A stretch of 64,000 nt of DNA, taken from the IMG/VR virus record IMGVR_UViG_3300018475_000004, one strand, 5' to 3'. The DNA comes from a virus. Its lineage: Duplodnaviria; Heunggongvirae; Uroviricota; Caudoviricetes. Each line of letters begins with the position of its first letter. Within the stretch, counting starts at the first letter, position 1. The position numbers were made by a program, and so were the translations under genes. A model generated the notes under the pieces. It saw only the letters and a program-made list of their open reading frames with translations, was not told where the DNA came from and made no database searches. This document shows, piece after piece, positions 2,391-30,008 of this stretch.

Positions 2391-2425
2391 ATAGTATAAT
2401 AAGTAAAAAGAAAGAGGATAATAGA

Positions 2426-6586: not shown

Positions 6587-6587
6587 A

Positions 6588-7154: not shown

Positions 7155-7198
7155 TTAAGTGATCAATCCATAAACCCATATTTAGTAGAGAAATTTTG

Positions 7199-7228
7199 CC
7201 CTCTACACAAGATGTAGGGTTTTTAATT
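7199..7228 (+). terminator. Hairpin followed by a T-run after the kinase gene
   Basis: Stem CCCTCTACA/TGTAGGG with a U-run TTTTTAATT. Confidence 0.4.
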
Positions 7229-7241
7229 GGAGGTAATATAT

Positions 7242-9446
7242 ATGTATGTAATTAAACGAGATGGAACAAGAGTTCTATTCAATCCCGATAAGATTGTTCA
7301 AGCTATCAACAAAGCTATGATTAGCACTTACGGCGCAGTCTATGAGACTGAAACTGCCGAAGAGATTGCCGATTTAATTGGTCAGCGCAATGTTGATATG
7401 AGCGTTGAGCAAATCCAAGATTTAGTTGAAGGATACTTGATGAAGAGCGAGTATCCAGAAGTAGCAAAAGAATATATCCTATATCGCGACCAGCGTAGTA
7501 AAGAGCGCACTCGTCGCAGCAAGTTAGTCAAAGCAGTAATGAAGCGCATTGAAGCTACTGCAGTAGAAAATGCTAATGCTAATGTTGACGAAAAGAGCTT
7601 CTCTGGTAGAGAGAAAGAGGCTTCCGCAGATATTCAGAAGATTATTGCCCTCGATTATACTTTGTCTCCAGAAGTCTCAAATGCTCACAAGAATATGTTG
7701 TTATATCAACATGATATGGAAAAGACTAATATCGGCCAGCATAACTGCTTGTTCGTTGATATGAAGAAGCTATTTACCGATGGCTTTATAACCCGTAATG
7801 GTGATGTAAGACCACCTTCTAATTTCAGTAGTGCTTGTCAACAAACTGCTGTTATTGACCAGTGCCAGTCTCAAGTTCAGTTCGGTGGTGTTGGTACTGT
7901 TCACTTGGATTATGACTTGGCTCCTTTCGTAAAGAAGAGTTATAAGAAGAAGCTAATGCAGTATTATACTGACGTCCAAGAGATGAGTGAAGAGGATGCT
8001 GAATTAGTTATTCATGCCAAGTTCCCCGATTTGGATATGGGTAATCCCGCATATGCAGATGATCCTGCACATAAGTTTGCGGTCCGCCAGGTTGAGCGCG
8101 AAGGCACCCAGGCTGCCGAAGCTATGTATCACAACTTGAATACATTAGAGTCTCGCGCAGGTTCTCAGGTTCCTTTCACTTCTATTAATTTTGGTAGAGA
8201 CGAATCTGTTGAAGGTCGTTTCGTATCTCGCAAGATGTTAGAGGCTTCCTTGTCTGGTATTGGTAAGCATCATCTAACTCCTATTTTCCCAATTAGTATT
8301 TTCCAATATAAGCAGGGTTGTAATGCTAATCCCGAAGATCCTAACTATGATTTGAAGCAGTTGGCTATCGAATCTTTAAGTAAGCGCATTTATCCCAACT
8401 TTGTCAATTGTGATTATTCCGAAGCACATGAAGACCCAAATAATATTGACACATATTTCGCAACAATGGGTTGCCGCACAATGTTGGGTTATGACAGACA
8501 CAGCAAATCTTATAATCGCGTCGGACGTGGTAACCTTGTTCCTAATACTATGATTTTGCCAAAGCTCGGTATCGAATATGGTATCTGCCTTGGTGAGCGT
8601 GAGACCCCAGACTTAGACGGCTTCTGGTCTGCGTTTGAGGATTTATTGATGCTATGTGAACAAGGTTTATTAGAGCGCTTTGATATTATGGTTAATCAGC
8701 CACCTGAGGCCGCTCCATTTATGTATCAAAATGGTACTATGAAGGATGCTCAGAAGTGCAAAATGTCTAACTATGAAGCATTGAAGCACGGCACTTTAGC
8801 TATGGGTTATATCGGTATTGCTGAAATGTGCCAGGCTCTGTTTGGTAAGAATCACGCAGAAGACTCCGAAGTTCATGCTTTCGCTTTGAAGGTTGTCAAG
8901 AGAATCAATGAATACGCTAAGGAAGCTTCCGAGCGTCACGATTTGAATTTCTCTTGTTATGCTACTCCTGCGGAAGGTCTATGCCATACCGCGCTGAAGG
9001 GCTTACGTAAGCAATATGGAATCATTCCTAATGTTACTGATAAGGAGTTCTTGACTAACAGTCACCATGTTCCTGTTTGGCAGGAAGTTGGTATCTTTGA
9101 GAAGTTAGCTATTGAAGCTCCTTTCTGTAAGTATCCTACTGGTGGTTGTATCACTTATGTAGAATTGGATTCTACTTTCGTAAAGAATACTAAGGCTATC
9201 GAGCAGATTATTGATTATGCTTTCAAAGAGCTAGATATCCCTTATTTAGCTTTCAACTTCCCAATCGACTCTTGCTTAGATTGTGGTTATCAAGGCGAGT
9301 TCAATGATGCTTGTCCCGAGTGCGGAAGCCAGAATATTCAACAGCTTCGTCGTGTAACTGGTTATTTGACTACTGACTATCGCCATTTCAACAACGGAAA
9401 ACAAGCAGAGGTTGAACACCGCGTCAAGCATTCTCAATTTTCCTAA
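7242..9446 (+). CDS. nrdD: Anaerobic ribonucleoside-triphosphate reductase (class III)
   Basis: ATP-cone N-terminus VIKRDGTRVLFNPDKIVQAINKA; C-terminal glycyl-radical region RRVTGYL and a CxxC zinc ribbon; ribosome-binding site GGAGG 8 nt upstream of the ATG at 7242. Confidence 0.9.
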   Translation: MYVIKRDGTRVLFNPDKIVQAINKAMISTYGAVYETETAEEIADLIGQRNVDMSVEQIQDLVEGYLMKSEYPEVAKEYILYRDQRSKERTRRSKLVKAVMKRIEATAVENANANVDEKSFSGREKEASADIQKIIALDYTLSPEVSNAHKNMLLYQHDMEKTNIGQHNCLFVDMKKLFTDGFITRNGDVRPPSNFSSACQQTAVIDQCQSQVQFGGVGTVHLDYDLAPFVKKSYKKKLMQYYTDVQEMSEEDAELVIHAKFPDLDMGNPAYADDPAHKFAVRQVEREGTQAAEAMYHNLNTLESRAGSQVPFTSINFGRDESVEGRFVSRKMLEASLSGIGKHHLTPIFPISIFQYKQGCNANPEDPNYDLKQLAIESLSKRIYPNFVNCDYSEAHEDPNNIDTYFATMGCRTMLGYDRHSKSYNRVGRGNLVPNTMILPKLGIEYGICLGERETPDLDGFWSAFEDLLMLCEQGLLERFDIMVNQPPEAAPFMYQNGTMKDAQKCKMSNYEALKHGTLAMGYIGIAEMCQALFGKNHAEDSEVHAFALKVVKRINEYAKEASERHDLNFSCYATPAEGLCHTALKGLRKQYGIIPNVTDKEFLTNSHHVPVWQEVGIFEKLAIEAPFCKYPTGGCITYVELDSTFVKNTKAIEQIIDYAFKELDIPYLAFNFPIDSCLDCGYQGEFNDACPECGSQNIQQLRRVTGYLTTDYRHFNNGKQAEVEHRVKHSQFS

Positions 9447-9493
9447 CTGTTGCTAACTACAACTTAGCTACGCTATAAGAAAGAGAGATAACT

Positions 9494-9976
9494 ATGAGAT
9501 ACAGTGGATTGATACTAAATGATATCACCGCTGCTCCAGGTTTATGTGTAAGCTTTTTTACACAAGGCTGTCCTCATCATTGTCCTGGGTGTCATAATCC
9601 TGGCACCTGGGCCTTTGATGGAGGTAAGGAGTTTACAAATAATACTTTACATAAGATTTTAGAAGGACTAACCGCACAAGGAATCAAGCGTAATTTATGT
9701 ATTATGGGCGGTGAACCTTTGTGTGAAGCAAATGCTTTTCTGGTAAATTTGATTCTCCAAGAGGTAAGACATAAGCTTCCAGAAGTGAAGATATATATTT
9801 GGAGCGGCTACACTTATGAAGAATTATTGCGGTCTGGCGACCCTCATGTCAAATCATGTCTGGAATTAGCGGACGTCCTAATCGACGGTCCATATATTGA
9901 AGCAGAGCGAGATTTGACTCTAGAAATGAGAGGCTCTCGCAACCAGCGTATAATTGACTTACATAAAAAAAATTGA
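9494..9976 (+). CDS. nrdG: Anaerobic RNR activating enzyme (radical SAM)
   Basis: CPHHCPGCHNP radical-SAM cysteine motif; 160 aa immediately downstream of nrdD. Confidence 0.85.
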   Translation: MRYSGLILNDITAAPGLCVSFFTQGCPHHCPGCHNPGTWAFDGGKEFTNNTLHKILEGLTAQGIKRNLCIMGGEPLCEANAFLVNLILQEVRHKLPEVKIYIWSGYTYEELLRSGDPHVKSCLELADVLIDGPYIEAERDLTLEMRGSRNQRIIDLHKKN

Positions 9977-9982
9977 TATAAT
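9953..9982 (+). promoter_or_regulatory. SigA-type promoter TTGACT-N17-TGaTATAAT (copy 2, identical 30-mer) upstream of the 10013 ORF
   Basis: ATTGACTTACATAAAAAAAATTGATATAAT is identical to 2361-2390; the -35 lies inside the last nrdG codons. Confidence 0.55.
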
Positions 9983-10012
9983 TTAGTATAAAGAGTAAAA
10001 GGAGGTCTTGAT

Positions 10013-10510
10013 ATGGGAAGTAAACTCACTGTCAAGAAAATGGACCTTTCACAAGTCAATTTTGAACCAATGGAAGGAGAAGTAATTCAAGATTCCATTT
10101 CAGGTGAAATTCGCGTATATCATGACGGTCATTGGGTTACAATGAGAACTGATGGCGCAGGCTTGAATTTAGGTCTATATGATTTGAATAAACAAATTAT
10201 CGCCCAGCTTCCTGAGTTGGCTGATTTAAATAAGGCAATCCAAACCATTGAAGCATTACATGAAATGTATCGTAATAAATACTATATGCTTTACGGTAAA
10301 GAGATTTCTTATTTTACTGTATTCAAACTAATTGAGCCTCAGTATTTCGCACAAGAGGTTCTTGATTGTCTGCGAAATGTGGGAAAAATTAAAGCCATTG
10401 ACCCCGACGAACCTGGCACTGCCGTGGAGATTTGGGTGGAAACAGATGACGGCCCAACCTGTCTATATCTGTTCCCTTATGATAGTGGCTTAGTTCAGGT
10501 AGGTGAATGA
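10013..10510 (+). CDS. Hypothetical protein (165 aa)
   Basis: ORF with ribosome-binding site AAAAGGAGG upstream; follows its own promoter. Confidence 0.6.
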   Translation: MGSKLTVKKMDLSQVNFEPMEGEVIQDSISGEIRVYHDGHWVTMRTDGAGLNLGLYDLNKQIIAQLPELADLNKAIQTIEALHEMYRNKYYMLYGKEISYFTVFKLIEPQYFAQEVLDCLRNVGKIKAIDPDEPGTAVEIWVETDDGPTCLYLFPYDSGLVQVGE

Positions 10511-10511
10511 A

Positions 10512-10781
10512 ATGAAAAGAATTTATTGTGAATTACATATGTTCGATTTGCACCAGAGAGTCTATATCGTTGATACAGATACTGGAGATAAAGAGTGCGT
10601 AGCAATTACCACCATGGAAGGACTTCCAGAGGTAATCAGTACAATCAGTAATGAAAAGAAAATTGATCATGTATATTTGAGTGGCAATAGTGTTTTCGGT
10701 AATGCTGTTTCCGAAGATATTCTTGCTTACTCAAAAATGAATTATAGTCGAAATAATATTGTTGTAGAGGTAATAAGATGA
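10512..10781 (+). CDS. Hypothetical protein (about 89 aa)
   Basis: ATG at 10512 after AGGTGA; overlaps the upstream stop. Confidence 0.5.
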   Translation: MKRIYCELHMFDLHQRVYIVDTDTGDKECVAITTMEGLPEVISTISNEKKIDHVYLSGNSVFGNAVSEDILAYSKMNYSRNNIVVEVIR

Positions 10782-11020
10782 AATATTTATTAAAAGCTGT
10801 TGATACTTATAGAGTTCCCACCATTGCCGATGTTGAGGCTCTTCATGAACAATTACTAGATGATCCCACTTTTGACCTAACTGCTTTTAGTTATAAGACT
10901 AAGCAAATTAAGGCTAAGGGTGAAGTTATTGAAGAATATCAAGTAGTTACTGCTACTAAGATTTTCACTAATGAGAAAGACCCCGAGGATGTTTATACCG
11001 TCACTTATGAAAGGGGTTAA
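10778..11020 (+). CDS. Hypothetical protein (80 aa)
   Basis: ATGA start/stop overlap with the upstream ORF. Confidence 0.5.
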   Translation: MKYLLKAVDTYRVPTIADVEALHEQLLDDPTFDLTAFSYKTKQIKAKGEVIEEYQVVTATKIFTNEKDPEDVYTVTYERG

Positions 11021-11025
11021 TCATC

Positions 11026-11565
11026 ATGGCACATTTTGAAAAAGTTTCTAAGTATGCGGACGCGGACTTAGCTATGCCGGTCCGTAAAACCAGTCAATCC
11101 GCAGGATATGACATGGTCGCCGCAGAGGATTATGTAATTCCTTCTCTTCCTTTGATGTGTGAAGAAGCAAAATTATTATGGCCTGTTGAGGTCGATGAAT
11201 ATGTAAGTCTGGAACAAATGGCTGACTTTACTAAGAAGATTGGTTTCAAGCCAACTCTTGTTTCTACTGGAATGAAGTGTAAGTTAGATCCTGGCTCTTG
11301 GTTACAACTAAGTGTCCGCAGTTCCTCTCCCTTGAAATATTGGTTGATGTTGGGTAACGGCATTGGTATTATCGATGCTGATTACTACAATAACCCCGAT
11401 AATGAAGGTGAGATTTTCTTCCAGATTTACAATCTATCTCCATTTAATATTCAAATTAAGAAAGGTGACGCAATCGGTCAGGCAACCATTCTTCCATATG
11501 GTATCACTTCTGATGATGTGGTAATGGGCGAACGCACTGGCGGATTCGGTTCTACTTCTAAGTGA
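11026..11565 (+). CDS. dut: dUTP diphosphatase
   Basis: Motifs AGYDM, SVRSS, GIIDADY and C-terminal RTGGFGSTSK. Confidence 0.85.
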   Translation: MAHFEKVSKYADADLAMPVRKTSQSAGYDMVAAEDYVIPSLPLMCEEAKLLWPVEVDEYVSLEQMADFTKKIGFKPTLVSTGMKCKLDPGSWLQLSVRSSSPLKYWLMLGNGIGIIDADYYNNPDNEGEIFFQIYNLSPFNIQIKKGDAIGQATILPYGITSDDVVMGERTGGFGSTSK

Positions 11566-12047
11566 GAACTCTTGCATTGGACCAGGCCAGTCGCGTGACT
11601 GGTTGGGCAGTATTTGATGATGGTGAACTTTACAATTATGGCAAGTTCTCCGCAACTCAAACCGATGTTGGAGATAGACTTCACTTTATTCGCAAGGAAG
11701 TTATTGGTTTAATTGAGAAGTTTGATATTGACGAAGTCGTCTTTGAAGATATTCAACTTCAAAATAATGTTGTCAATAATGTAGCCACCTTTAAAGCATT
11801 GGCTGAGGTATTTGGCGTTTTACATGAATTATTTGTTGAAATGAAAATGCCTCGAACCGCCGTTCTTTCTACCGTCTGGAAATCTTCTCTTGGTATCAAG
11901 GGAAAAGATCGTCCAGCCTAGAAGAAAGCCGCACAAGATTGGGTTGTAAAAACCTATAATGTAAAACCAACACAGGATGAATGTGATGCTATTTGTATTG
12001 GCGCTCATTATACCAAAAATAAGGTCGAAGTATTCGATTGGTCCTAA
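11562..12047 (+). CDS. RuvC-like Holliday junction resolvase containing one in-frame TAG (11919-11921) read as a sense codon
   Basis: N-terminus LALDQASRVTGWAVF (catalytic Asp). The conserved C-terminus QDECDAICIGAHY lies downstream of the TAG in the same frame. The true stop is TAA at 12045. Confidence 0.75.
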
Positions 12048-12111
12048 CTAATAAATCCCCCTATCCAACTTCTTATAAATGTCAGAGAAGTTAGAAAGGG
12101 GGATACTTTAA

Positions 12112-12570
12112 ATGGAATTATTAGCTGAGTGGGGTATGGAGATTTTGTTTGCTCTTATCAGTGCCGGTGTAATTGGTTATGCTAAGTTCAAAACTCGTGA
12201 ATTGAATCGTGAATTAAGAAACGCTAGAGAATTAGCCGCCGCCCAAGAGAGACAACATGTCGAGGACACCATTGAGATCCATTTAGAACCAGTATATCAG
12301 GAATTAGAGGAACTAAGAAAATATATCAGAGAAACTGAGAACATCGAGAAGACTCATATGAATCTGATTATTGCTTCTTATCGTTTCCGCTTAGTACAAT
12401 TATGCAAAGGATTCTTAGCTCAGGGATATATTACTCCTGCACAGATGGAACAGTTAACCGAGTTCTATAAATTATATACTGGTTTGGGTGGCAACGGTCA
12501 AGCTAAAATCTATTATGATAAGGCTATGGCTTTAGACTTAAAAGTTGATAATGACGACGTTGTTGATTAA
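12112..12570 (+). CDS. Hypothetical membrane-anchored coiled-coil protein (152 aa)
   Basis: N-terminal hydrophobic segment ILFALISAGVIGY; last gene of the plus-strand module. Confidence 0.6.
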   Translation: MELLAEWGMEILFALISAGVIGYAKFKTRELNRELRNARELAAAQERQHVEDTIEIHLEPVYQELEELRKYIRETENIEKTHMNLIIASYRFRLVQLCKGFLAQGYITPAQMEQLTEFYKLYTGLGGNGQAKIYYDKAMALDLKVDNDDVVD

Positions 12571-12630: not shown

Positions 12631-12928
12631 TACCATTATAAATCGCGTTTGTCCGTTCTAATATATCTTCTCCATATTCAGTCATAAGCTCTGCTACCAT
12701 TTCCTCTTCATCATATGATAAATCCACAGCATAGCTAAACATAAAAGCATGAACTAATTCATGACATAAGACTTCTTTTAGTTGTTGAGGGGAAAGAGTC
12801 TTGTCTATACATATAGTCTATGTGACTTTATCACAAACTCCAAGAGCGTGAGTTCTCCAAGGCGTAAGTAGCATTGGATGGGCTGGCGAGACCAACCGGA
12901 CCCGCCAGCGCACGCCATTTATAATCAT
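12617..12928 (-). CDS. Small recoded ORF (about 85-103 aa, 1 in-frame TAG) with an HExxH motif
   Basis: Reading through TAG at 12818-20 gives ...QQLKEVLCHELVHAFMFSYAVDL.... ATGA overlap with the upstream gene. Not in the ORF track because the TAG splits it. Confidence 0.35.
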
Positions 12929-13506
12929 TTCATTTGACCAATTTTAGAAGCCAATGCGGTTATCTTCTTTTCAAGATATGCTTTTTCTTCTGGAGAAGCA
13001 TCCGCAATCATTTCGGTAATATCCAGAGATAGCTCTTGCATATACTTTTCTAACTCACGCAATTGAGTAGCTTTATCTCGTTTCATATCCTTGGCTTCCA
13101 TATACATTCTACGACTATTATAACTGCGGCCTTCGCGCTCATCGCGCCACATACCTGGGTCATCGTAATAATTTCTTCCATTAGAACTATTCATTCCAGA
13201 AGAAGAAGAATTATCATTGTCAGCATAGAATGTACCATCACTTCTACGATTTCTGTCATAATACATGCGGCTGTCACCATTTTCCTACTGGTGATGGCCG
13301 CCTTTTTTCATTTCAAACTCCATTTCGTGTGAAGAGTTGTTCATAGCTTCTGTAACGGTGCAATAGTAGATTGCCTCTTCTAAATCTTTAATCATATCAA
13401 TAGCTTCTCCAAGCTCTTTAGTATCTACTTCACCCAAATCACATAATTGTACTTCAACAGCACACATTAAAGTTTCTTTCATGTGTTTTAATCTTTCGTG
13501 GTCCAT
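12925..13506 (-). CDS. Hypothetical late protein (193 aa, 1 in-frame TAG at 13285)
   Basis: ORFs 13285..13506 and 12925..13266 share a frame and are joined by TAG (...GGHHQ-Q-ENGDSRMYYDR...); ribosome-binding site AAGGAGGG; true stop TGA. Confidence 0.6.
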
Positions 13507-13517
13507 ACTATCCCTCC

Positions 13518-13940
13518 TTACGCAGAACGTTCAGCAATTAGATTTGCATTTTGTACATCAATTGGCTGAGTAGAAATATTCTTCACGGCCACATGAGAGC
13601 AGCATCCTTTTGGAATATCAATAAAGATAGATGCGCTCACATTGAAGAAATCTCCAACTGCGGCAGGGGTGACAGTCATAATTGTAGCTGGAACCGCTTC
13701 ACCATCCAAAGAGATAGCTAAGGAAATTGGTCCGACGGTGCCACCTTCTGCAATCGCGACATTTGCGCCGAAATGTACTCTAAAACGGGCGCGGCACTGA
13801 GTATTGGTGACTCCGCGAAGAGTCACCAATCCACTACCATCACGATGCTCGATAGAATAATTTCCAGAAGTAACAGAATCAGTGAAATAAACATTCTGAT
13901 TTGCGGGAACTGTTTGAACAGCATTAGCAATAATTTCCAT
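13518..13940 (-). CDS. Hypothetical protein (140 aa)
   Basis: Intact ORF; ribosome-binding site AAGGAGGAAAG; TAA stop. Confidence 0.6.
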   Translation of the reverse strand: MEIIANAVQTVPANQNVYFTDSVTSGNYSIEHRDGSGLVTLRGVTNTQCRARFRVHFGANVAIAEGGTVGPISLAISLDGEAVPATIMTVTPAAVGDFFNVSASIFIDIPKGCCSHVAVKNISTQPIDVQNANLIAERSA

Positions 13941-13959
13941 ATACTTTCCTCCTTAGATA

Positions 13960-14676
13960 TTAGTTGCAGCCACATCCAGCATAGTAGTTCATACCACAAC
14001 CATAGCTAGCATATGGATTAGCTACCATGTATGCAGGAATAGGAGCCTTAGTTCCTAACTGGTCGATCAAGAAAGCGTTCTGAGCTTGCTGAGAAGCGGT
14101 CAAGCGCAAAGCCTGATTTTCAGCCTGCAAAGTAGCAATCTTATCCTGAGTCAAGAAGTCTAAGATAGAGCGAACACCATTATTATTGTTTTCAATAATA
14201 TCTCTCGCGGCATTGGCAATATTAGTATTAGTTGCGTTAGATTGAGTCAAGATATTATAGTTGACTTCGCACAAACCTCTCTCAATCAAGCGCTGAGTTT
14301 CGCAGCAACAAGCAGCTTGCTCTGCGGACATATCACACAAACGGCCCATAATGGCGTTAGTGTTCTGCATATTACCCATAGTAACATTACCAAAACCAGT
14401 TAGCAAAGAAGTGTTCATGTCATAGAAACCATCGCATAGACCATGCTCTAGTCCACGGATTCCATTTTCTAGATTGTTGATATCAAAGCCATAAGAAACA
14501 GCGTCGCGAGCGTTACCTGCGCCAAGGCCGCCGCCATAGCCACCATTACCCCATCCCGCAAACAGGAATAACAGTAACAGCCACCATGCGCCGTCGCCAT
14601 CTCCACCGAAACCAGTACCACTTCCACGGGTTACAGCAGCGATATCAGATAAATTATAACCTTTTCCATTGAACAT
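13960..14676 (-). CDS. Gly/Cys-rich membrane protein (238 aa)
   Basis: GFGGDGDG-AWWLLLLFLFAGW-GNGGYGGG transmembrane segment flanked by Gly runs; Cys-rich C-terminus; ribosome-binding site AGGAGG. Confidence 0.6.
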   Translation of the reverse strand: MFNGKGYNLSDIAAVTRGSGTGFGGDGDGAWWLLLLFLFAGWGNGGYGGGLGAGNARDAVSYGFDINNLENGIRGLEHGLCDGFYDMNTSLLTGFGNVTMGNMQNTNAIMGRLCDMSAEQAACCCETQRLIERGLCEVNYNILTQSNATNTNIANAARDIIENNNNGVRSILDFLTQDKIATLQAENQALRLTASQQAQNAFLIDQLGTKAPIPAYMVANPYASYGCGMNYYAGCGCN

Positions 14677-14697
14677 AATTTTTTTCCTCCTTAAATT

Positions 14698-14952
14698 TTA
14701 AGTGTTGTAGCCTAATGCACGTTTAAAGGCTTCGAACTCCTGGTCGAAATTTTGACCGCCCTACTGGGCGTAAAGGTTGCGAATTACTTTCTCTAATTCG
14801 ACAGTGCGACCAGATTGAGCTAAATTTAGGAGATTTTTTCCGAGGGGATTATCATAGGCTTGTCCTTTCAAAATTGATAACATCAATTGCTGAGGATTTT
14901 GCCCGGATTTAATCATTTGGATTAATTTATTTGGGTTTACTGGATACATCAT
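14698..14952 (-). CDS. Hypothetical small protein (84 aa, 1 TAG at 14761)
   Basis: ORF 14761..14952 extended through TAG to TAA at 14698; ribosome-binding site AGGAGGTATGA. Confidence 0.5.
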
Positions 14953-14962
14953 TCATACCTCC

Positions 14963-15397
14963 TTAGAATGACATTAATTCTACTTTTTCTTTTGCGGGGG
15001 CAGATACGGCCGGCTCGGTTGGCTTCTGGAGCATTTGTAGTTGCGCCAGGACCTGCTCAAACTCTTCTCTCGTTACAAATTTCTCAACGGATGGAACAGA
15101 ACCGCTCTCTTCTCTCTAAACGGGCATTTCCCTTAATTCATACACACACAGTGATGCGGTGCCATCCATATTTATTTGTTTTGTGTAGATTCGTCTGTTC
15201 GCTAAATCTGGGAAGTAGAATACAGAACCATCAAAGTCAATAGAGGTTGCACGGGCCTCTTCCAATGATGCTACCAAGCGTCCTTTCAGTCCTGCTTGCG
15301 GCGGCGCCTGTCGTAAGTAAGACAATGGTTGGTACACTGGTTGCTATTGGGCGACTTGCTAGGGTTGTTGTGGATAATAATTATAGTTTGAGTACAT
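14963..15397 (-). CDS. Hypothetical protein with Q/P/Y-rich N-terminus (144 aa, 3 in-frame TAGs)
   Basis: ATG at 15397 with ribosome-binding site GGAGAGGAGA. TAGs at 15359 and 15344 fall inside YPQQP-Q-QVAQ-Q-QPVYQP. TAG at 15116 joins to the TAA at 14963. Confidence 0.6.
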
Positions 15398-15439
15398 ATG
15401 TAAGGTCTCCTCTCCATACAAAAAATATTTTATCCAATC

Positions 15440-15600
15440 CCCTCATAGCTTTATGAAAATTAGGACCGAAAAATTACCCTAATTTGTCCAAACGAGGACC
15501 GAACCCTAACCGAAAATGGACCGCGACTGGAATGAAAAATAACCAAAAATGGACCGTAAGAATACCGGGACATAACTTTTTGAGGTCCTGCGAATGACAA
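15440..15600. repeat. Array of 4-5 GGACCG direct repeats (AAAAT-GGACCG units) in the intergenic region
   Basis: GGACCG at about 15465, 15495, 15517 and 15551, plus degenerate GGTCCTG at 15584; spacing 22-34 nt; between a terminator and the next gene start. Confidence 0.5.
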
Positions 15601-15643
15601 AAAAAAATACCCGAAAAATACTTTTTAGGTATTTTTCGGGTAT
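15596..15643 (-). terminator. Strong rho-independent terminator (minus strand)
   Basis: 15-bp perfect stem ATACCCGAAAAATAC/GTATTTTTCGGGTAT followed on the minus strand by T9. Confidence 0.8.
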
Positions 15644-15651
15644 CTCCGCAA

Positions 15652-16059
15652 TTACTCAGTAACAGGAACAATCTTACTTACATTAACCTCAGCCTCAATA
15701 CGACTAGTAATGTAGGCGGTCAAGTCGCCATAAATGGAAGCCAAATAATGCTTAGCTTCATCAGTTAATACAGACATAACTGCATTATAAGTCAAATTGA
15801 AAGCTTCCTTCTGAGCTTCTGCATCAAACTTACCTTGCTTCTTCAAAGATTCAACATAAGTCTGATTAGTTGCGATAACGCAAGTAGTGATAGTATCAGC
15901 AAGCATTTGAATGTACTTATCTGCTAATTCACTATCAGTCTTATCTGCGATTTCTTGGCTCTTCATTTTAATGAATTGAACTAAGTACATAGTCAATACA
16001 CCCAAGAGAGGAATAACGCAAAGTTCAAAAATTTGATATAACATAACCATCCAGTCCAT
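15652..16059 (-). CDS. Putative holin-like single-TM protein (135 aa)
   Basis: N-terminal transmembrane segment VIPLLGVLTMYLVQFI then a soluble coiled region; ribosome-binding site AAGGGGGA; terminator immediately downstream. Confidence 0.4.
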   Translation of the reverse strand: MDWMVMLYQIFELCVIPLLGVLTMYLVQFIKMKSQEIADKTDSELADKYIQMLADTITTCVIATNQTYVESLKKQGKFDAEAQKEAFNLTYNAVMSVLTDEAKHYLASIYGDLTAYITSRIEAEVNVSKIVPVTE

Positions 16060-16080
16060 ATTATATCCCCCTTTTTTTTA

Positions 16081-18255
16081 TTAGAATTGAACAAATGAAT
16101 CTCTAGAATCAATATACATATATAATTGAGTCAGAGTCCATGGTTGCTACAGGGTCCAAACAACATATAAATTTAAAGTAGCTCCATCTGCTACGCCTAA
16201 ATCATCAACAAATCCTTGACCAAATCGATAGTCAGGAGAAGTGGCAGATGCAGATCTACTCCAACCAATAGCTTCATAGCCATCCTTCGTCCATCCAGAA
16301 GGAAGAGTTCTAAAAGTATTGGTGGTAGCTGCAGGAATACAACTAACACTTAATGTATTACCATTGCTATTGTCATGATATTTAATTGTAAACTCTTTTG
16401 TATCCCAAACTGCATATAAAATAACTGTTGCGCCTGCGGCTCCAATATTATTGAAAGTATCTCCAGCTTCATAAGTCGCAGTCGTAGCAGAAGATGATGT
16501 AGACCATCCTAAGAAGATTAAGCCATTGGCTGCAATGGTTCCAGTAGGAATGGTATAATTAGTATTACGAGCACAAGTCATATTACTAAAATCACCACTT
16601 TGAATACTACCACCATTTAGATTGAAAATAACTGTATAAGTGGCTTCACCCCATTGAGCGTATAAAGTAACAGTTCCTCCGGCAGTAGTTGTTAAATCAG
16701 TTACTACAGCATTATTAGCATATGTAGTTCCTGTTCCATCTTCTTTGGTATTCCATCCGGTAAAGGTATAACCAGAATGGGTAAAACTATTAGTTCTTAA
16801 ACTAGAGCCTTCACCATAAGTATGAGATGTATTAGCCATAGAACCAGTACCACCATTAGCATTATAAACAACAGTATAAGTATTTCCAACCCATTCTGCA
16901 GTCGCAGTTACATTGCCAGCATAATTACCATTGAAAACCCAAGAGCGAGTATCAGAAGCAGTAACCATTGCGGCGGCTGGATTATCGCCCATAAAATAGA
17001 AAGTAGCACCACTAGTATTCTATTGACCTGAGCCTCCAGAGAAAGTAAATCCAGTACAAGTATAACCAGGTTTTGTTGGCTTATTGTCTGGCTAGTATCC
17101 TTCGTAACTATCTAAATTACCAATATAAGTTAGAGTACCATAAGAGAATTCTGTGGTAAAAGGACTTGAAGTAGTATTGTCACCGTTATACATTGTACCA
17201 CCATTTGGATTAATGGTTAATGTATATACATTGGGTGTCCAATATGGATAAAAAGTTGCAGGAGCATCTGTCTGATAAGTTCCATTTAAGGTATTTACCC
17301 ATACCGTACCTGCGGCGTCAGAAGCCCAATCAGTTTGAGTATAACCAGAACGAGTGAATTGCACTCCTTTTAAGGTTAAATTTGTACCATGAGTTTTATA
17401 AACAGAACTCTCTGTACCAGAACCATAAGTACCAGCTTTATATTGAACTAAATAAGTCGCAGAACTTGCGTTAGCAGTATAAGACTTATTACCATAAATA
17501 TAAAAACTATAAGGGTTTGCGGTTGAAGTTTCTGAACCTGTCCAGTTTACAAAGCTATATCCAGAAGATGGAGTAGCTCTAATGGTTACTAAATCGCCTT
17601 CTGTATAAGTGCCACCGCCACTTACAGAACTGATACCAGTACCTTTACTCAAACTTACAGTATAAGATGCTGCATTTTGAGTATAAGTAACATAAGCATC
17701 AGTGCAAATTGCGCCACTGTGATAAAAACCATAAATTTGGCTTGTAGATTTAGTATATAAGAATAAATAATATGAAGTATTTGGGGAAAAAGATCCGTAG
17801 AAAGTAGGAGACCAAGTATTAAGATTTAGAGAATTTCCAGTAAGAGAACTGGTACTAGCCTCACTTCCAATTGCGTAATTTCTAAAAGTGCTGTAAGTAT
17901 CACTACTACTACTTGTAGAAGTAGTTCTTAAACTAGCATATAATGGATAAGTAGAAGTAAGACCTTTGTAAGTATGGTCAAAACCTTGAACTGTAATTGT
18001 TAAAGCACTAATAGTAACATTTGATAAATTTGGAGTAGTTACTTTGATAGCAACTGTAAATTTACTATTACCGCTTGGATCACAAGCCATGGGGTTGACA
18101 TTTCCACCGAAGAAATCTTCTCCATCATTAACGCCCCAACCTTCATCGTCAGTTGTAGAAGTGCCTAGGTTGCCGCCAGAGGGTCCAAACCAGTAGACTC
18201 CAGTGGCAGCAACTCTTGCACGAACACCATTTATAGTGCAATCATAAGTTGCCAT
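16081..18255 (-). CDS. Tail fibre/adhesin with Listeria-Bacteroides (Flg_new-type) repeat domains (724 aa, 3 TAGs)
   Basis: ORFs 17092..18255 and 16147..16992 share a frame and are joined by TAGs at 17092, 17020 and 16147. Repeats TYTVVYNANGGTG...LYAQW and YTVIFNLNGG...LYAVW. Ribosome-binding site AAAGGAGAAAA. Confidence 0.65.
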
Positions 18256-18287
18256 TGTATATTTTCTCCTTTCTCACCTAGATTTTA

Positions 18288-20393
18288 TTAAGTCAATAAG
18301 AAGAAAATTCGACCTTCTTCTAAATTAGTAGTTGGTAAAGTAGGACCATAATTACTAGAATTTAGAACGATAGTTGTACCATTTAAATAAACAGTTGGAG
18401 AAGTCACAGTTGCTTTAGTATCAGTCAAAGTTAGATAAGAAGTACCTGCGGAATGACTCTTCAATTGACCACTCAACTTGATGTTTGTAGCATTGATTTG
18501 TCCAGAGAATGTACCTGTTGTACTTGTGATACCAGCGCTAAAATTAACAGCTCCAGTAAAAGTCTTTGCTCCTGCAAAAGTCTGAGTAGTAGTAGAAACT
18601 AGACCAGGATTTTCGCCAGTAGCAGATTGAATGCCATTAGTAGAAGTATAAGTAGCACCATTAATGACAAAACTAATAGTTGGATTAGAAGCGCCTGTGC
18701 TGAAACTTAAACTTGGGCTAGCATATAGAGGAGCAGAAGTAGTACCGCCAGATACTAAAATACGGCCTGCGGCCATAGGAGTAACCTGTCCTACTGCATT
18801 AGTTCCATTGCCATATAATAAAGAATAAGCACTTAAAGAGTTAGCGCCAGTACCACCATGCTCGACAGAGACAGTAGAACAAGCAGTAACTTCACCGCTC
18901 GCAGCAACAAACACTGGTGCATTCAGACCACCAACGGCCGCAGTAGTGCTAGCCTTAGTAACAATTAAGCCAGAAGTATTAGGTAGCTGTAATTCACAAT
19001 CAGCAGAACCAGCATTACTTGTTAGCTTATGCTTATAGTTATTATTATTAGGATTATGGAAATAAGTTTCTTTAAAATGAGCAACTTCAACTGGGGCTCC
19101 AGCAGCTCCTAAGTTAGTTGCCAATAAATTAGTAGAAGTGATGCTAGTGAAACCAATCATAGTTGCGGGAATGATTAGAGTATAACCATCTTCATTAGAA
19201 CCATCAACAATAGTTCCAGTTGTGCCGGCAGTGCCAGAAATAGAGATATTGCGTTCAGCACCCCATTTAGCAGTAGTAATTGCTTCAGTTTCTCCGCCTT
19301 TAACTTCAGTGCCATTTAAAAGAATTGCATTGGTCCAAGAAGTTGCATCTCTAGCTGTACCTTCTAAATCTCCAGCAAAAGCTCCTTCAAACTGGGCTGC
19401 ATTGATTGAAGTGGAATGAAGTTCTTCAATATAAGCAGTAGGAATATAATTAGATTCAGCTCCTAAGGAACCTGTCCAAAAATAACCTTCTGCAAGCGTA
19501 AAACTTGCATCACCAGCCATAGCCACTATTCCTGGAGTATTATCCTAATTGCTTACACTAAACACTGCGGTCTAATCCTCTGTAGCTAATATTAAAGTTT
19601 CTGGACTTTGAATTATTCCTACTTTATTATATTCTGTACTATCATCTCCAAATAAAACTGCAGCATCTCCAATTCCAATGGCATAACCGTTATTTAATTC
19701 TAATGCAGGCATTGTACCAATTATAATGCCTGGATAAAAAGATTTCAATCCTAATGGCATCTATTGGATTTCTGTAATACTATTCTTGGCAGGCATCATT
19801 AAACCAGGGTTATATATTGTTGCTTCAGGGAAAAAATTAGAAGCTATTACAGTTCCATCTTCAAAAGTTAAATCTAATCTAAGGCCATCAACTAAATCAA
19901 TATTGCTAGAATTATACTAAATTTTAAATTTAGCGCTGCTAATATTGCTACCGCCAATTTTTACTCGATTGCCATTTTCATCATCATAATATAATTCACC
20001 AAAGTTTTTATCTCCATCTTTAGCAAAATATACTGTGCCTTTATTTTTACTGGATGGAAGATCAGTCTTCGCACCCATCTTTAATTTGATATCCATTCTC
20101 TTTCCATATATGATAATTCCAAAGGAGATTCCATCATCTAAATAAATATGAGCTTGAAAACTTAATGAACTACCAATTTGAATTTCATTCTAATAATTTG
20201 AATCCCAATACCATAAAGCAGCTTCGCCATTAGGCCCATTAATAATCCAATCTGAAGTAACTGTCGCTTCGACGGGATCTCCACTTTTATAAATGCCCAT
20301 ACTAGATCCATAGTAGCCTGTCATTTCTTCGCCTTCAAAAAAATAACGAATATAAAAACCACTATAAATCCCATCGGGTGGAAGAGTTGCCAT
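18288..20393 (-). CDS. Tail fibre protein (701 aa, 5 TAGs)
   Basis: ORFs 20190..20393, 19572..19760 and 18288..19526 share one frame and are joined by TAGs at 20190, 19917, 19761, 19572 and 19545. Gly/Thr/Ser-rich fibre-like C-terminus. Ribosome-binding site AAAGGAGGAACATAT. Confidence 0.65.
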
Positions 20394-20544: not shown

Positions 20545-21192
20545 TTATGAAACAAATTCAATCCAAAAAATATCTTGCTGATTTAATTTTCTGATTTCGT
20601 CAGTAAAATGTTCATACATACTACTAGCAATATCATAATCACCAGCTAGATCTCCGGCGTCTTCAAGGCCGTTTGGCTGAACGTTTAGTCCATATAGGAC
20701 TTTGCCAACATTTGGCATGGTGCTGATATTATAGAGGATTTTCTTTCCATCAGCATCAACACGATAAAAACGAATGGCATATTCTACTTCTGCTTCGTCT
20801 TGAGTTACTCGTCCATCAATACACCATGGAATAACCATCTTATCCTTTTCCAAAGTGCCAGGAGTAGCTTTATGAGTATAAATGTCGTAATATGGAACGG
20901 CATATAAACCAGTCACACCTTGCTTCTGGGGGTCTGCGGGATAAGTCTTATAAGAAATAACACAGGTGGTGGTAGACAAGTCCATATAATCCCAATATCT
21001 ATCCATGATAAAGTATAAATTTTCGGATTTATGGTCACGAGCAGTGCTTAGGATATCACGTTCTCCAATTGAGCGAGTACGCCAATCAACTTCAATGTAA
21101 TCCTCCGCATATGGAATGGAAGCCATCTTTGGAGGATTACTTCTTTGGATTTCATATAATTTGTCAATAGCAGTTTGACTTAACTGTGACAT
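20545..21192 (-). CDS. Hypothetical structural protein (215 aa)
   Basis: Intact ORF; ribosome-binding site AAAGGAGGTCAATAATT. Confidence 0.6.
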   Translation of the reverse strand: MSQLSQTAIDKLYEIQRSNPPKMASIPYAEDYIEVDWRTRSIGERDILSTARDHKSENLYFIMDRYWDYMDLSTTTCVISYKTYPADPQKQGVTGLYAVPYYDIYTHKATPGTLEKDKMVIPWCIDGRVTQDEAEVEYAIRFYRVDADGKKILYNISTMPNVGKVLYGLNVQPNGLEDAGDLAGDYDIASSMYEHFTDEIRKLNQQDIFWIEFVS

Positions 21193-21210
21193 AATTATTG
21201 ACCTCCTTTA

Positions 21211-23223
21211 TTAAGAAATCTGGAATACCTTAGAAGTAGTTTTCTTTTCTTCTCCTGCTAGAGTATTAGTGATTTCACAGTAATAGAAGGCAATATTAAC
21301 AGGCAAGTCATTATTAGCTAATAGCTTAACAGTAATTTCACTGCCATTTACACTAATAATATCTAGATCAGAATCCTTAATAGGAGTACCATTCTGGTTA
21401 GGAGTATTGCGGAACCACTTGTAAGTGACACCGTCAGTCTGGAACTCATTCATTTCTTCAATTTCAATCTTGAAGGTAATAGGAGTATTCAAGCCAGGAA
21501 CATTCTCTAAAGTTGGGTCATCATCTGTAATAGGATACTCGATACCATCAACTAGATACTTGACGATTTCAGGAGCTTCAGCAGGATAAGTAACCTTACA
21601 TTCAGAACTTTCTTTCCACATACTCTCTCTGTTCAAAGTACCGATAGCCTTAACTTTATACCAGCCTGGCTGAGTAGCAGTCATACTAGCATTAGAAGCA
21701 TTGGGAACTTCAACATATTCAGCGTCAGAAGAAGCAGCTTCATACCATACATAGCTCTTTTCAGCACCGTCATTTGCATCAACAGTAACAGTTAAAATAG
21801 CCTGGCTAACAGTCTCTTCGCCTTCGCCAATAGTAGATAGAACTTTGTTCTTAGGTAAATCTGCGGTGAACTCAACTTTTTCAACACAAGGAATTACGCA
21901 CTTCAAAGAATCAACGCTCTCTGCAGATTTGCTACTACCAACTTGATTGTTCAAAGTTAGCTTGTATTCACCGGTGACGTGAGGCCAATATCTCTTATTA
22001 GGTGCTAGCGCAGTAGAAGCACCCAAATCCTCAGCATCATCATCAACAGCCAAAATGGTATAAACACTTACCTGCTCATAATAAACAGGAGCAGCTTCTC
22101 CCTCTTCTGGCTCTTCAAAAGCATCGCCTAGGAAAACAGTATAAATCTGATTGCCAGTTTCAGCTTCGATTTCTTCAACATAATAAGTCTTGCCAGCTTC
22201 TTTTTCAGTATCATTTGTGGGCTTGAAGATAGTATCTACATCAGCGTAAGCCTTGAAAACTTCTTCAGTATCTTTAGTTACAGCGACATTATTTTCGATG
22301 AATCGAGGAGTATAATACCACTTGTAGCACAACTGACCTGCATCAGCAGTGGCACCGCTAGCATATAGCTTAATTGCATCATTCTTTAAGAAAGCTTTTC
22401 CTTCGTCATTACCCAATTTCCAATCATAGAAGAAGACAGGAATCTGAGGTAGAGTCATGTTGGAGTCAACGCCATTTTCAACTGCGGCCGCAAACAACAA
22501 AGATGGATCATCAATGTCTAGGTCAGCATTGAAATGAGTATATAGAGCTTGCTTAATCATAACAGAACTAGCCAAAGTATTTAAGCTGTACTGAATTTCT
22601 TTCTCTTCATTTCTTACGAAGAAACGAACAGAGAACTTCAAAGGATTTTTACCTTCAACAGTAACCTTACTGGTCAAAGGCCAACCAAATAATAGATAAC
22701 CTTCTTCTGCTTCAAAGTCAACTAAGACAATACGAGAAGCACCTTCGTCTCCTGCTGGGTTAGTCCACTGAACATAAATTTCAGTAGAAGCCAAGTCAGT
22801 ATAATCGAAATAGCGAGGAACCTTAAACATCAAAGTCTCGGCTAACTGATCACCAGTAACACTAACACCATATTTACTATAAATATCAGGAACCTGAATA
22901 TTTCTAGTATTTAGGTCAATGTAAAAACAGCCAGACTTGACATCGTATTTTTCATCCATAGGAAGCATCAAGAACTTAGCAGAGTTTTGATATGCAACAT
23001 TAGAAGGTGGATTATTTCTAATATTTTCAGTGTGATAATCTGCTAAATAACCAATATGAGCAAAATACTCTTCAAGAGAACTGATTTTGCCTTTATCCAA
23101 AACAGACTGATTAATCTTTACACCAAGAGGATCTTTAGCCTGCATATCCAATAAAACGTTATATGCGTCTTGGAATAGAACGGTATATTGGTCTTTATAA
23201 TCTTTATTATAGACTGTAATCAC
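21211..23223 (-). CDS. Hypothetical structural protein (670 aa, GTG start, no TAG)
   Basis: Intact ORF; GTG start at 23223. Confidence 0.55.
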   Translation of the reverse strand: MITVYNKDYKDQYTVLFQDAYNVLLDMQAKDPLGVKINQSVLDKGKISSLEEYFAHIGYLADYHTENIRNNPPSNVAYQNSAKFLMLPMDEKYDVKSGCFYIDLNTRNIQVPDIYSKYGVSVTGDQLAETLMFKVPRYFDYTDLASTEIYVQWTNPAGDEGASRIVLVDFEAEEGYLLFGWPLTSKVTVEGKNPLKFSVRFFVRNEEKEIQYSLNTLASSVMIKQALYTHFNADLDIDDPSLLFAAAVENGVDSNMTLPQIPVFFYDWKLGNDEGKAFLKNDAIKLYASGATADAGQLCYKWYYTPRFIENNVAVTKDTEEVFKAYADVDTIFKPTNDTEKEAGKTYYVEEIEAETGNQIYTVFLGDAFEEPEEGEAAPVYYEQVSVYTILAVDDDAEDLGASTALAPNKRYWPHVTGEYKLTLNNQVGSSKSAESVDSLKCVIPCVEKVEFTADLPKNKVLSTIGEGEETVSQAILTVTVDANDGAEKSYVWYEAASSDAEYVEVPNASNASMTATQPGWYKVKAIGTLNRESMWKESSECKVTYPAEAPEIVKYLVDGIEYPITDDDPTLENVPGLNTPITFKIEIEEMNEFQTDGVTYKWFRNTPNQNGTPIKDSDLDIISVNGSEITVKLLANNDLPVNIAFYYCEITNTLAGEEKKTTSKVFQIS

Positions 23224-23250
23224 GTTATATCTTCCTTTCTTTATAATATT

Positions 23251-23282
23251 GTTCTAGGGAAGGAATTTCCCTTCCCTAGAAC
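23251..23282. other. Perfect 13-bp inverted repeat in the intergenic region
   Basis: GTTCTAGGGAAGG-aatttc-CCTTCCCTAGAAC. Confidence 0.5.
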
Positions 23283-23299
23283 TGAAAAATCAAATAACC

Positions 23300-23509
23300 T
23301 TATTTTTTGGTATTGTCCGTAATTTCTCTCCACTTATGTTCCTCGGCCTCTTCAACAGTGACGCTGTACTGAGTACGCTCACCATTAGTTAAAATCTTGC
23401 CGGGATCAGCATTGATAGTTACGATATTGATATGATTGATACCATCTAGAAGGACCTTAGTATCTAAAATACCATTGCGGCCAAGGTATCTGTATTTTCT
23501 ATCTTTAGT
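23300..23509 (-). CDS. Small hypothetical protein (69 aa)
   Basis: ATG at 23509 with ribosome-binding site AAAGGAGAAGG; TAATGA overlap with the upstream gene. Confidence 0.45.
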   Translation of the reverse strand, partial: TKDRKYRYLGRNGILDTKVLLDGINHINIVTINADPGKILTNGERTQYSVTVEEAEEHKWREITDNTKK

Positions 23510-23511
23510 CA

Positions 23512-29982: not shown

Positions 29983-30008
29983 TGTTGCTCTCCTTTCTAT
30001 CCAAATAT

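What the first reader, a model, noticed from the sequence alone, without database searches (positions are those of the whole stretch)
15340..15397. Context evidence that the reassigned TAG encodes glutamine
In the gene starting at 15397, two in-frame TAGs fall inside a glutamine run: MYSNYNYYPQQP-TAG-QVAQ-TAG-QPVYQP. The read-through product is YPQQPQQVAQQQPVYQP. Gln is the residue that fits this low-complexity context, as in known code-15 phages.
Basis: inference. Interest (0 to 1): 0.6.

Follow-up and report, generated by a model that had tools for sequence, protein, structure and literature searches.

The report
Amber codon read as glutamine

Summary
The minus-strand gene 15397..14963 (144 codons, TAA stop) has in-frame TAGs at codons 13, 18 and 94. 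The first two sit in the run YPQQP-TAG-QVAQ-TAG-QPVYQP.

The interpretation (TAG = Gln) is supported, but by codon-level comparison rather than by context.
- 13 late genes in the window carry 92 in-frame TAGs, and none of 34 gene models ends in TAG.
- Over 200 related metagenomic loci show TAG alternating mainly with CAA/CAG: Q is 50-58% of sense partners at well-aligned sites, then K and E, with W/Y/L near zero.
- An empirical substitution likelihood ranks Gln first by at least 190 log units.
- TAG-using genes are depleted in CAG.
- Where a relative has TAG inside NrdD, solved standard-code NrdDs have Q in 6 of 8 comparisons.

Caveats:
- Codon 18 is TAG in all 8 genomes compared.
- Codon 94 alternates with GAA.
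- The "Q" in public protein databases comes from code-15 gene calling and is circular.
- No tRNA(CUA) was found in the window or in about 85 kb of flanking genome; about 35 kb was not seen.

The phage is an SPbeta/EF1-like genome of about 183 kb. This is a new member of a known kind (code 15).

The parts
14963..15397 (-). Target gene: 144 codons plus TAA, three in-frame TAGs. Conserved phage protein of unknown function (PHROG 21718), lying between a tail-fibre/holin-like block and small downstream genes.
   Evidence: PHROG hit E = 8.4e-12. No Pfam family. 4221 database homologs. Syntenic homologs in standard-code Clostridium perfringens phages and Dulem virus 36.
15359..15361 (-). In-frame TAG, codon 13.
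   Evidence: Aligns with CAA, CAG, CAG, CAA in L011-L014 and with ACT next to a gap in L015 and L016.
15344..15346 (-). In-frame TAG, codon 18, flanked by CAA on both sides.
   Evidence: TAG in all 8 genomes compared, which share about 75-100% protein identity. No sense-codon partner was seen, so its identity rests on the pooled evidence.
15116..15118 (-).
   Evidence: TAG in 4 genomes and GAA (Glu) in 4. Q/E exchange is the commonest substitution of true Gln codons in these alignments.
15326..15373 (-). Q/P/Y-rich low-complexity N-terminal segment (codons 9-24) that holds the first two TAGs.
   Evidence: Distant standard-code homologs also have Q/N-rich N-termini.
12925..20393 (-). Late-gene block using TAG as a sense codon: 12 TAGs in 4 of 7 genes.
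35245..63600 (-). Main TAG-using virion block: 80 TAGs. The tape measure carries 22+16, the gene at 59796-61121 carries 9, the YomV-like gene 6, the YomW-like gene 3 and the baseplate/tail genes 5-9 each. CAG is depleted (CAA 238, CAG 50).
   Evidence: Pfam names come from the sibling contig's gene table.
20545..35160 (-). TAG-free block inside the late strand: 6 genes and 4691 codons, including the 2156-aa BspA-type LRR protein. CAA:CAG is 73:73.
   Evidence: Fisher p = 4e-13 against the TAG-using late genes.
204..12570 (+). Replication and nucleotide-metabolism genes (Dda-like helicase, DnaE-type polymerase, guanylate kinase, NrdD and its activase, dUTPase-like) with no TAG in this genome. 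All end in TAA or TGA.
   Evidence: Relatives do carry TAG in some of these genes.

Best explanation
TAG is a sense codon for glutamine in this phage (genetic code 15). The target gene is an ordinary, conserved late gene whose mRNA is translated through three UAG codons.

Shown:
1. TAG occurs 92 times in frame in 13 late genes and never terminates any of the 34 gene models.
2. Across a large clade of related phages, TAG alternates with CAA/CAG. Its substitution spectrum (Q, then E and K) is that of true Gln codons.
3. TAG-using genes have lost CAG. This fits TAG arising from CAG by C-to-T change and then being kept.

Inferred:
- UAG is read by a Gln-accepting tRNA with anticodon CUA. This needs efficient suppression, because the tape measure alone has 38 TAGs.
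- Concentrating TAGs in virion genes delays or gates their translation until suppression is available. This is the published late-gene model.

Where the suppressor comes from is not settled. I put about 0.4 on a phage tRNA gene in the roughly 35 kb of genome I could not fetch. I put about 0.6 on no phage-encoded suppressor, meaning a host tRNA or near-cognate reading by tRNA-Gln with release factor 1 neutralised. The confidence below refers to TAG = Gln sense codon.
For: - ORF structure under TAG read-through.
- 92 in-frame TAGs; terminal codons are 26 TAA, 8 TGA, 0 TAG.
- In-frame stops inside aligned coding regions of the 46 relatives tabulated: TAG in 39 of them, hundreds in total, against TAA 1 and TGA 0.
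- Target-gene codon alignment.
- Pooled tallies: 1310 pairs with Q first. In the larger set, 1195 pairs at local identity >=0.5 with Q 50%, K 12%, E 10%, W 1, Y 6, L 11. With one count per column, Q is 30-48% against a 3.2% background.
- Gln is best by 190-1650 log-likelihood units.
- CAA (two mutational steps from TAG) is the commonest partner: 231 against 68 CAG at the strict threshold. The signal is therefore amino-acid identity, not mutational proximity.
- CAG depletion in TAG-using genes: CAA:CAG is 238:50 against 67:64 and 73:73 in TAG-free blocks.
- Independent standard-code check: relative L012 has TAG at NrdD codons 59, 373 and 496. Solved NrdDs 8p23, 9d3x and 1h78 have Q/Q, K/Q/Q and K/Q/Q there.
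- Tape-measure codon 214 aligns with CAA in Enterococcus phage EF1, phAss-1 and MT835936.
- Literature: TAG to Gln was predicted and confirmed by metaproteomics in gut phages (PMC9523058; bioRxiv 10.1101/2021.08.26.457843; PMC10607447).
Against: - No tRNA of any kind was found by ARAGORN in the window. None with anticodon CUA was found in the related or flanking loci scanned. The positive control on phAss-1 worked.
- No tRNA match in Rfam, even at E <= 1.
- Codon 18 of the target gene is never seen as a sense codon. A MAFFT alignment with three distant standard-code homologs puts M/L/L there and N at codon 13, but that region is low-complexity and the alignment unreliable.
- Codon 94 pairs with Glu, not Gln.
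- TAG sites are less conserved than true Gln sites: 57% against 79% Q at the strict threshold.
- Cultured standard-code relatives are too distant to be informative: 23 pairs gave E5, T3, K3, Q2.
- Relatives carry TAG in early genes such as NrdD, which weakens a strict early/late gate.
- There is no protein-level evidence for this phage.
Confidence: 0.93

Rival explanations
1. TAG is decoded ambiguously. The phage has no dedicated suppressor. UAG is read by near-cognate host tRNAs (mainly tRNA-Gln, some Tyr, Lys or Trp) once release factor 1 is blocked or outcompeted. 'Gln' is then only the predominant product, and the one selection sees.
For: No tRNA(CUA) in about 149 of about 183 kb examined, and no tRNA at all in close relatives. 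Published recoded phages without suppressor tRNA genes exist (PMC10607447). From my own knowledge, Gln is the main near-cognate insertion at UAG in RF1-deficient E. coli.
Against: A tape measure with 38 TAGs needs near-quantitative, accurate reading. About 35 kb of the genome was not examined. tRNA-repair genes (Thg1-like, RNA ligase) lie at the edge of the unseen region. No RF1 inhibitor was identified.
Confidence: 0.3
2. TAG encodes another amino acid: Glu or Lys (the next-best fits), or Trp, Tyr, Leu, Ser or pyrrolysine (single-step or known alternatives).
For: Codon 94 of the target gene alternates with GAA. E and K are each 10-15% of TAG partners. ARAGORN labels any CUA anticodon 'Pyl'. 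One database homolog has W and one has S at the codon-18 column.
Against: Log-likelihood is worse than Gln by at least 190 (E) and at least 229 (K) even with one count per column. Pair counts: W 0-1, Y 1-6 and L 2-11 of 520-1195. The E and K shares match what true Gln codons show. CAG depletion is specific to TAG-using genes. NrdD positions are Q in standard-code structures. The isolated W and S variants are most simply one-nucleotide neighbours of TAG (TGG, TCG); their DNA was not fetched.
Confidence: 0.03
3. The TAGs are real stops. The target gene would then be a pseudogene or a set of short ORFs, or the TAGs would be assembly errors.
For: Under the standard code the gene breaks into fragments (error). 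The window does differ from sibling contigs by one single-base indel elsewhere.
Against: Identical TAGs occur in ten independent assemblies. Frame and protein conservation continue across the TAGs in relatives down to about 75% identity. The same holds for 13 genes, including the tape measure and tail genes. TAG is never used as a terminator.
Confidence: 0.01

Closest known systems
Genetic code 15 (TAG to Gln) in gut phages: crAss-like, Lak, Garnet, Amethyst and Topaz clades (PMC7886860; bioRxiv 10.1101/2021.08.26.457843; proteomic proof in PMC9523058)
   Same: In-frame TAG concentrated in structural and late genes. TAG interchanges with CAA/CAG. TAG is avoided as a terminator. The genome is AT-rich. 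Replication genes are largely standard-code compatible.
   Different: This is a different phage lineage: SPbeta/EF1-like siphovirus modules and a DnaE-type polymerase, probably with a Bacillota host. No suppressor tRNA was found in about 80% of the genome. A 15-kb TAG-free island sits inside the late strand.
Phassvirus phAss-1 (OQ749652; PMC10607447), 'Caudoviricetes code 15 clade'
   Same: A TAG-recoded gut phage with a DnaE-type polymerase, NrdD and homologous tail and tape-measure genes. TAGs lie mostly in virion genes. TAG was assigned to Gln by the same kind of alignment argument.
   Different: It is only distantly related (DnaE 38% identity). phAss-1 is 136 kb with 36 tRNA genes, including tRNA-Sup-CTA just upstream of nrdD. 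The window's phage is about 183 kb and has no tRNA at that position or anywhere examined.
Enterococcus phage EF1 / Bacillus phage SPbeta group (standard code)
   Same: Shared virion and replication modules: YomU tube, YomV, YomW, YonB, YonD, YorF, YorH and a DnaE-type polymerase.
   Different: These phages use the standard code. Identity is 26-43%, too low for site-by-site inference.
Classical amber suppression by tRNA-Gln(CUA) (E. coli supE/glnV); from my own knowledge
   Same: UAG is read as Gln by a tRNA-Gln with a one-base anticodon change.
   Different: supE is a weak suppressor in a standard-code cell. Here UAG is a routine sense codon, about 20% of Gln codons in late genes. No tRNA was identified.

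Membership tests
Code-15 (TAG = Gln) recoded phage | In-frame TAGs inside conserved protein-coding genes, with frame and similarity continuing across them | tested here: met
   92 TAGs in 13 genes. Alignments run through TAG in the 46 relatives tabulated and in the larger locus set.
Code-15 (TAG = Gln) recoded phage | TAG not used as a terminator | tested here: met
   34 gene models end in TAA (26) or TGA (8), none in TAG.
Code-15 (TAG = Gln) recoded phage | TAG columns occupied by Gln codons in homologs | tested here: met
   Q is 50-58% of partners at well-aligned sites. Gln is best by likelihood. NrdD standard-code structures give Q in 6 of 8 comparisons.
Code-15 (TAG = Gln) recoded phage | Suppressor tRNA with anticodon CUA and Gln identity elements encoded by the phage | tested here: inconclusive
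   None in the window, and none in about 85 kb of flanking genome in identical or >=89% relatives. About 35 kb was not retrievable. The positive control was fine. Published code-15 phages without such a gene exist, so this feature is usual rather than strictly defining.
Code-15 (TAG = Gln) recoded phage | Recoded codons enriched in late (structural or lysis) genes | tested here: met
   0 TAG in 3533 early codons against 92 in late genes (Fisher p = 6e-12). However, a 4691-codon late block is also TAG-free, and relatives have TAG in some early genes.
Code-15 (TAG = Gln) recoded phage | Gln detected at TAG positions in peptides | not testable with these tools
   Needs metaproteomics of samples containing this phage.
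SPbeta/EF1-like large siphoviruses | Characteristic virion (YomU tube, YomV, YomW, YonB, YonD) and replication (YorF, YorH, DnaE-type polymerase YorL) genes in synteny | tested here: met
   Precomputed Pfam labels on the identical sibling contig. tblastn to SPbeta YorL gives 38.5-38.8%, and to the EF1 tube protein 43%.

The most novel reading that the evidence does not exclude
This widespread SPbeta-like gut phage lineage uses TAG as a routine glutamine codon without encoding any suppressor tRNA. It would then have to make the infected cell read UAG by other means, such as near-cognate reading by host tRNA-Gln after disabling release factor 1, or a host-borne suppressor. Relatives carry TAG even in early genes such as nrdD. 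That would require suppression from the start of infection, rather than a late switch.
Probability: 0.4. Interest if true: 0.6.

Novelty: new member of a known kind. Interest (0 to 1): 0.27.

Why it matters
For annotation, the whole late half of this window must be translated with table 15. Under table 11 the tape measure, tail, baseplate and the target gene fall apart.

Scientifically, the amino-acid assignment adds nothing new to what is known for gut phages. It does place an abundant, undescribed SPbeta/EF1-like lineage among the recoded phages: thousands of database homologs and contigs of 150-207 kb.

It also raises a concrete, testable question: where does the UAG-reading tRNA come from when no tRNA gene is seen in four fifths of the genome?

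There is also a practical warning. Public protein databases already carry 'Q' at these positions because their gene callers assumed code 15. Such sequences cannot be used as evidence for the assignment.

Tried and rejected
1. Database homologs as evidence. The 120 listed homologs all show Q at the TAG columns, but their DNA has TAG. They are circular and were rejected.
2. Megablast of 24 kb against GenBank phages gave no hit. An IMG/VR scan with the tape measure gave no relative.
3. Cultured standard-code phages (EF1, Sundance, D-1873, Dulem 36, C. perfringens HMD-PC1, bajarodcaudo 2) have local identity mostly below 0.4, so the residue tallies are uninformative.
4. Suppressor tRNA hunt, by ARAGORN:
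   - The window.
   - 42 relatives of the tail region.
   - The left extension on the identical contig.
   - Four IMG/VR walking steps leftwards, to about -47 kb.
   - The right extension and three IMG/VR steps, to about +101 kb.
   - A Thg1-anchored look-up. One of its two hits, P0311, was an unrelated T4-like phage.
   - A GTDB scan with the phage sigma factor, which returned mostly bacterial sigma-70 genes.
   - Only Asn, Lys, Ser, Ile, Leu, Arg and Gly tRNAs turned up, all in distant relatives. None had anticodon CUA.
5. Rfam at gathering and at E <= 1 gave nothing relevant.
6. The first look-up of a window protein failed because the gene starts at ATG 649, not 616.
7. Pfam gave no family for the target protein or its neighbours, so its function stays unknown.
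8. I asked whether the invariance of TAG at codon 18 is special. Neighbouring CAA codons (alignment columns 11, 17, 37) are equally invariant, so I make no claim.

Full report
**Observation.** The minus strand from 15397 reads ATG TAC TCA AAC TAT AAT TAT TAT CCA CAA CAA CCC TAG CAA GTC GCC CAA TAG CAA CCA GTG TAC CAA CCA. The TAGs are at 15361-15359 (codon 13) and 15346-15344 (codon 18). A third in-frame TAG lies at codon 94 (15118-15116), and the frame ends with TAA at 14965-14963 (144 aa).

**Window-wide recoding.**
- Treating TAG as sense turns fragmented late genes into ORFs of 1263, 1831, 1834, 965, 948, 724, 718 and 701 aa. Treating TGA as sense gains nothing comparable.
- Thirteen minus-strand genes hold 92 in-frame TAGs. 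The ten plus-strand replication genes hold none.
- All 34 gene models end in TAA (26) or TGA (8).

**What the phage is.**
- The plus strand encodes a Dda-like helicase, a DnaE-type polymerase (closest GenBank phage hit 38.8%; SPbeta YorL 38.5%) and NrdD.
- The window is 100% identical over 20.4 kb to ENA contig k141_2695036. It matches k141_1895590 (183,267 bp), whose ends join at window position about 14,531, so the genome is circular or circularly permuted at about 183 kb.
- The sibling contig's precomputed Pfam labels name YomU tube, YomV, YomW, YonB, YonD, YorF and YorH. This is an SPbeta/EF1-like siphovirus.
- The nearest cultured relatives are Enterococcus phage EF1 (tube protein 43%) and the SPbeta group. 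The nearest described recoded phage is phAss-1 (DnaE 38%).

**A trap.** A search of the 5.8-billion-protein collection returned 4221 homologs of the target protein. All listed ones have Q at the TAG columns. The DNA of ten contigs encoding the top hit has TAG at those codons, and the tool reports that they do not translate to the query. The collection's gene caller used code 15, so those Qs are assumptions, not evidence.

**Codon-level test on the target gene.** I fetched DNA for six diverged orthologs (75-84% protein identity, contigs of 42-207 kb). I then back-mapped a protein alignment to codons.

| Site | Result |
|---|---|
| Codon 13 (TAG in window) | CAA, CAG, CAG, CAA in four relatives; ACT beside a gap in two |
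| Codon 18 (TAG in window) | TAG in all eight genomes |
| Codon 94 (TAG in window) | TAG in four genomes, GAA in four |
| Window CAG30, CAA119, CAA121, CAG124 | TAG in three, five, one and four relatives respectively |
| Window GCG118 | TAG in one relative |

Neighbouring CAA codons are as invariant as the codon-18 TAG, so its conservation is not exceptional.

**Pooled test.**
- A JGI scan anchored on the TAG-free chaperone-like gene (59197-59733) gave 39 loci at 93-39% identity. IMG/VR scans added more than 150 loci.
- All relatives are recoded. Inside aligned coding regions they carry hundreds of TAGs, one TAA and no TGA.
- In tblastn alignments of the window proteins (TAG masked as X), I recorded the codon opposite every TAG, in both directions.
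- At local identity >=0.5 there are 1195 TAG-versus-sense pairs: Q 50%, K 12%, E 10%, T 6%, W 1, Y 6, L 11.
- At >=0.7 there are 520 pairs, with Q at 58%.
- Counting each residue once per column, Q is 30-48% against a background Gln frequency of 3.2%.
- I built a substitution model from the same alignments. The log-likelihood of the observed partners is highest for Gln. The runner-up (Glu or Lys) trails by 190-1650 units, depending on the counting scheme.
- The E and K shares mirror what genuine Gln codons show.
- The commonest partner is CAA, which is two mutational steps from TAG. The pattern therefore reflects amino-acid identity rather than mutational neighbourhood.
- Per site, 45 window TAGs have well-aligned relatives. 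Q is the plurality at 19, E at 8 and K at 6. At the six YomV-like sites, sampled in about 70 relatives each, Q and TAG alternate at all six.

**Two independent lines.**
1. *Codon usage.* TAG-free blocks have CAA:CAG of 67:64 and 73:73. The TAG-using blocks have 44:22 with 12 TAG, and 238:50 with 80 TAG. So TAG appears where CAG is missing.
2. *Standard-code anchors.* Relative L012 has TAG at NrdD codons 59, 373 and 496. In the alignments to solved NrdD structures these columns read Q and Q (8p23, 9d3x), then K, Q, Q, then K, Q, Q (8p23, 9d3x, 1h78). Tape-measure codon 214 (FYQ-TAG-GL) is CAA in EF1, phAss-1 and MT835936.

Otherwise the cultured standard-code phages are too distant to help. A MAFFT alignment of the target N-terminus with three distant standard-code homologs puts N at codon 13 and M/L/L at codon 18. 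That segment is low-complexity at about 30% identity, so I do not rely on it.

**Mechanism.**
- Decoding must be efficient. In the sibling contig the tape measure is one 3129-aa ORF with 38 TAGs.
- The usual agent is a phage tRNA(CUA). phAss-1 has two just upstream of nrdD, and ARAGORN finds them.
- Here ARAGORN and Rfam find no tRNA in the window, even at E <= 1.
- I walked outwards using the identical ENA contig and IMG/VR relatives at 89-100% identity.
  - Leftwards to about -47 kb the genes are: YorF/YorH/DnaB, ThyA, DHFR, topoisomerase II, NAD-dependent ligase, RNase H, an endolysin-like protein, an SPFH protein, an NAD-salvage module, a sigma factor, an RNA ligase, and a Thg1-like gene.
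  - Rightwards to about +101 kb the genes are: head genes, portal, terminase, then small early genes.
- No tRNA(CUA) was found anywhere. Close relatives have no tRNA at all. Distant ones have isolated Asn, Lys, Ser, Ile, Leu, Arg or Gly tRNAs.
- The source of the suppressor is therefore open. I put about 0.4 on a gene in the unseen part; tRNA-repair genes border it. I put about 0.6 on no phage-encoded suppressor.
- Recoded phages without suppressor genes have been reported.
- The late-gene bias fits the published gating model. Against a strict early/late switch, a 15-kb late block is TAG-free, and relatives carry TAG in nrdD, guanylate kinase and other early genes.

**Comparison and verdict.**
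- TAG to Gln in gut phages has been predicted repeatedly and confirmed by metaproteomics.
- This window meets the defining features that could be tested, except for the suppressor tRNA, which is inconclusive.
- The finding is correct but not new in kind. It is a new, abundant lineage of a known type of recoding.
- Interest is low to moderate. The one open point is the missing suppressor.

Noticed in passing
window 55311 (junction of ORFs 55278-59069 and 49681-55176): The window lacks one T (AATATT-ATTCC against AATATTTATTCC) relative to two otherwise identical sibling contigs. In those contigs the tape measure is a single 3129-aa ORF. In the window it is split into 1263-aa and about 1831-aa ORFs in different frames. 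This could be an assembly or sequencing error, or a real frameshift variant.
   Followed up: partly
window 20545-35160 (minus strand): Six late-strand genes (4691 codons, including the 2156-aa BspA-type LRR protein) have no TAG and a 1:1 CAA:CAG ratio, like the early genes. The flanking late genes use TAG for about 20% of Gln codons. This region is also the most variable among relatives, so it may be recently acquired from standard-code phages.
   Followed up: partly
window 15398-15652 (intergenic, upstream of the target gene): A terminator-like hairpin lies at about 15590-15640. After it, four copies of CGGTCC lie on the minus strand within 94 bp (15463-15556), spaced 33, 22 and 33 nt apart; the whole window has only 9 copies. 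The array is found only in the closest relatives. The proximal ~85 nt (TAATTTTCCnnTCCTAATTTT ... GGAGAGGAGACCTTACAT-ATG) is conserved in all relatives and may be a late promoter and leader.
   Followed up: partly
L012, L011, L014, L015 (relatives), aligned to window 2426-12570: Relatives carry in-frame TAGs in early genes that are TAG-free in the window. Examples: NrdD (3 in L012), guanylate kinase (several relatives), the 12112-12570 gene, and DnaE codon 928 (TAG in L011 against CGT in the window, in a perfectly conserved context).
   Followed up: partly
L063 6888-7880, L065 6892-7881, L071 7655-8623: A roughly 325-aa protein with an N-terminal membrane segment lies among early replication genes. 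It carries 7-12 TAGs and is by far the most TAG-dense gene seen. It could be a lysis- or timing-related protein kept silent until suppression is active.
   Followed up: no
P0076 and P0058 (database homologs of the target protein): At the column of the invariant codon-18 TAG, one homolog has W and another has S. These are probably the single-nucleotide neighbours TGG and TCG of TAG. Their DNA was not fetched.
   Followed up: no
L138 18-341 and 3554-4972; L255 9523-12143 and 17920-19098: Relatives encode tRNA-repair enzymes (Thg1-like tRNA-His guanylyltransferase, RtcB, RNA ligases) next to an NAD-salvage module (sirtuin, NAMPT, NadE, PncA, PRPP synthetase). Close relatives nevertheless show no tRNA genes.
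   Followed up: partly
window 15652-16059 and L093 7148-7552: The small membrane protein just upstream of the target gene has a paralog next to an endolysin-like 777-aa gene about 35 kb away in the early region of relatives. These may be two holin-like copies.
   Followed up: no
L145 521-877: A 118-aa endonuclease-like ORF sits between the terminase and portal genes. It is present in the window's genome and some relatives, and looks like a mobile insertion.
   Followed up: no
L226 13989-15083 and 17240-18109: A roughly 0.7-kb unit is duplicated. It consists of a probably non-coding stretch followed by a gene starting MANTTSS... and lies in the small-gene region upstream of the terminase.
   Followed up: no
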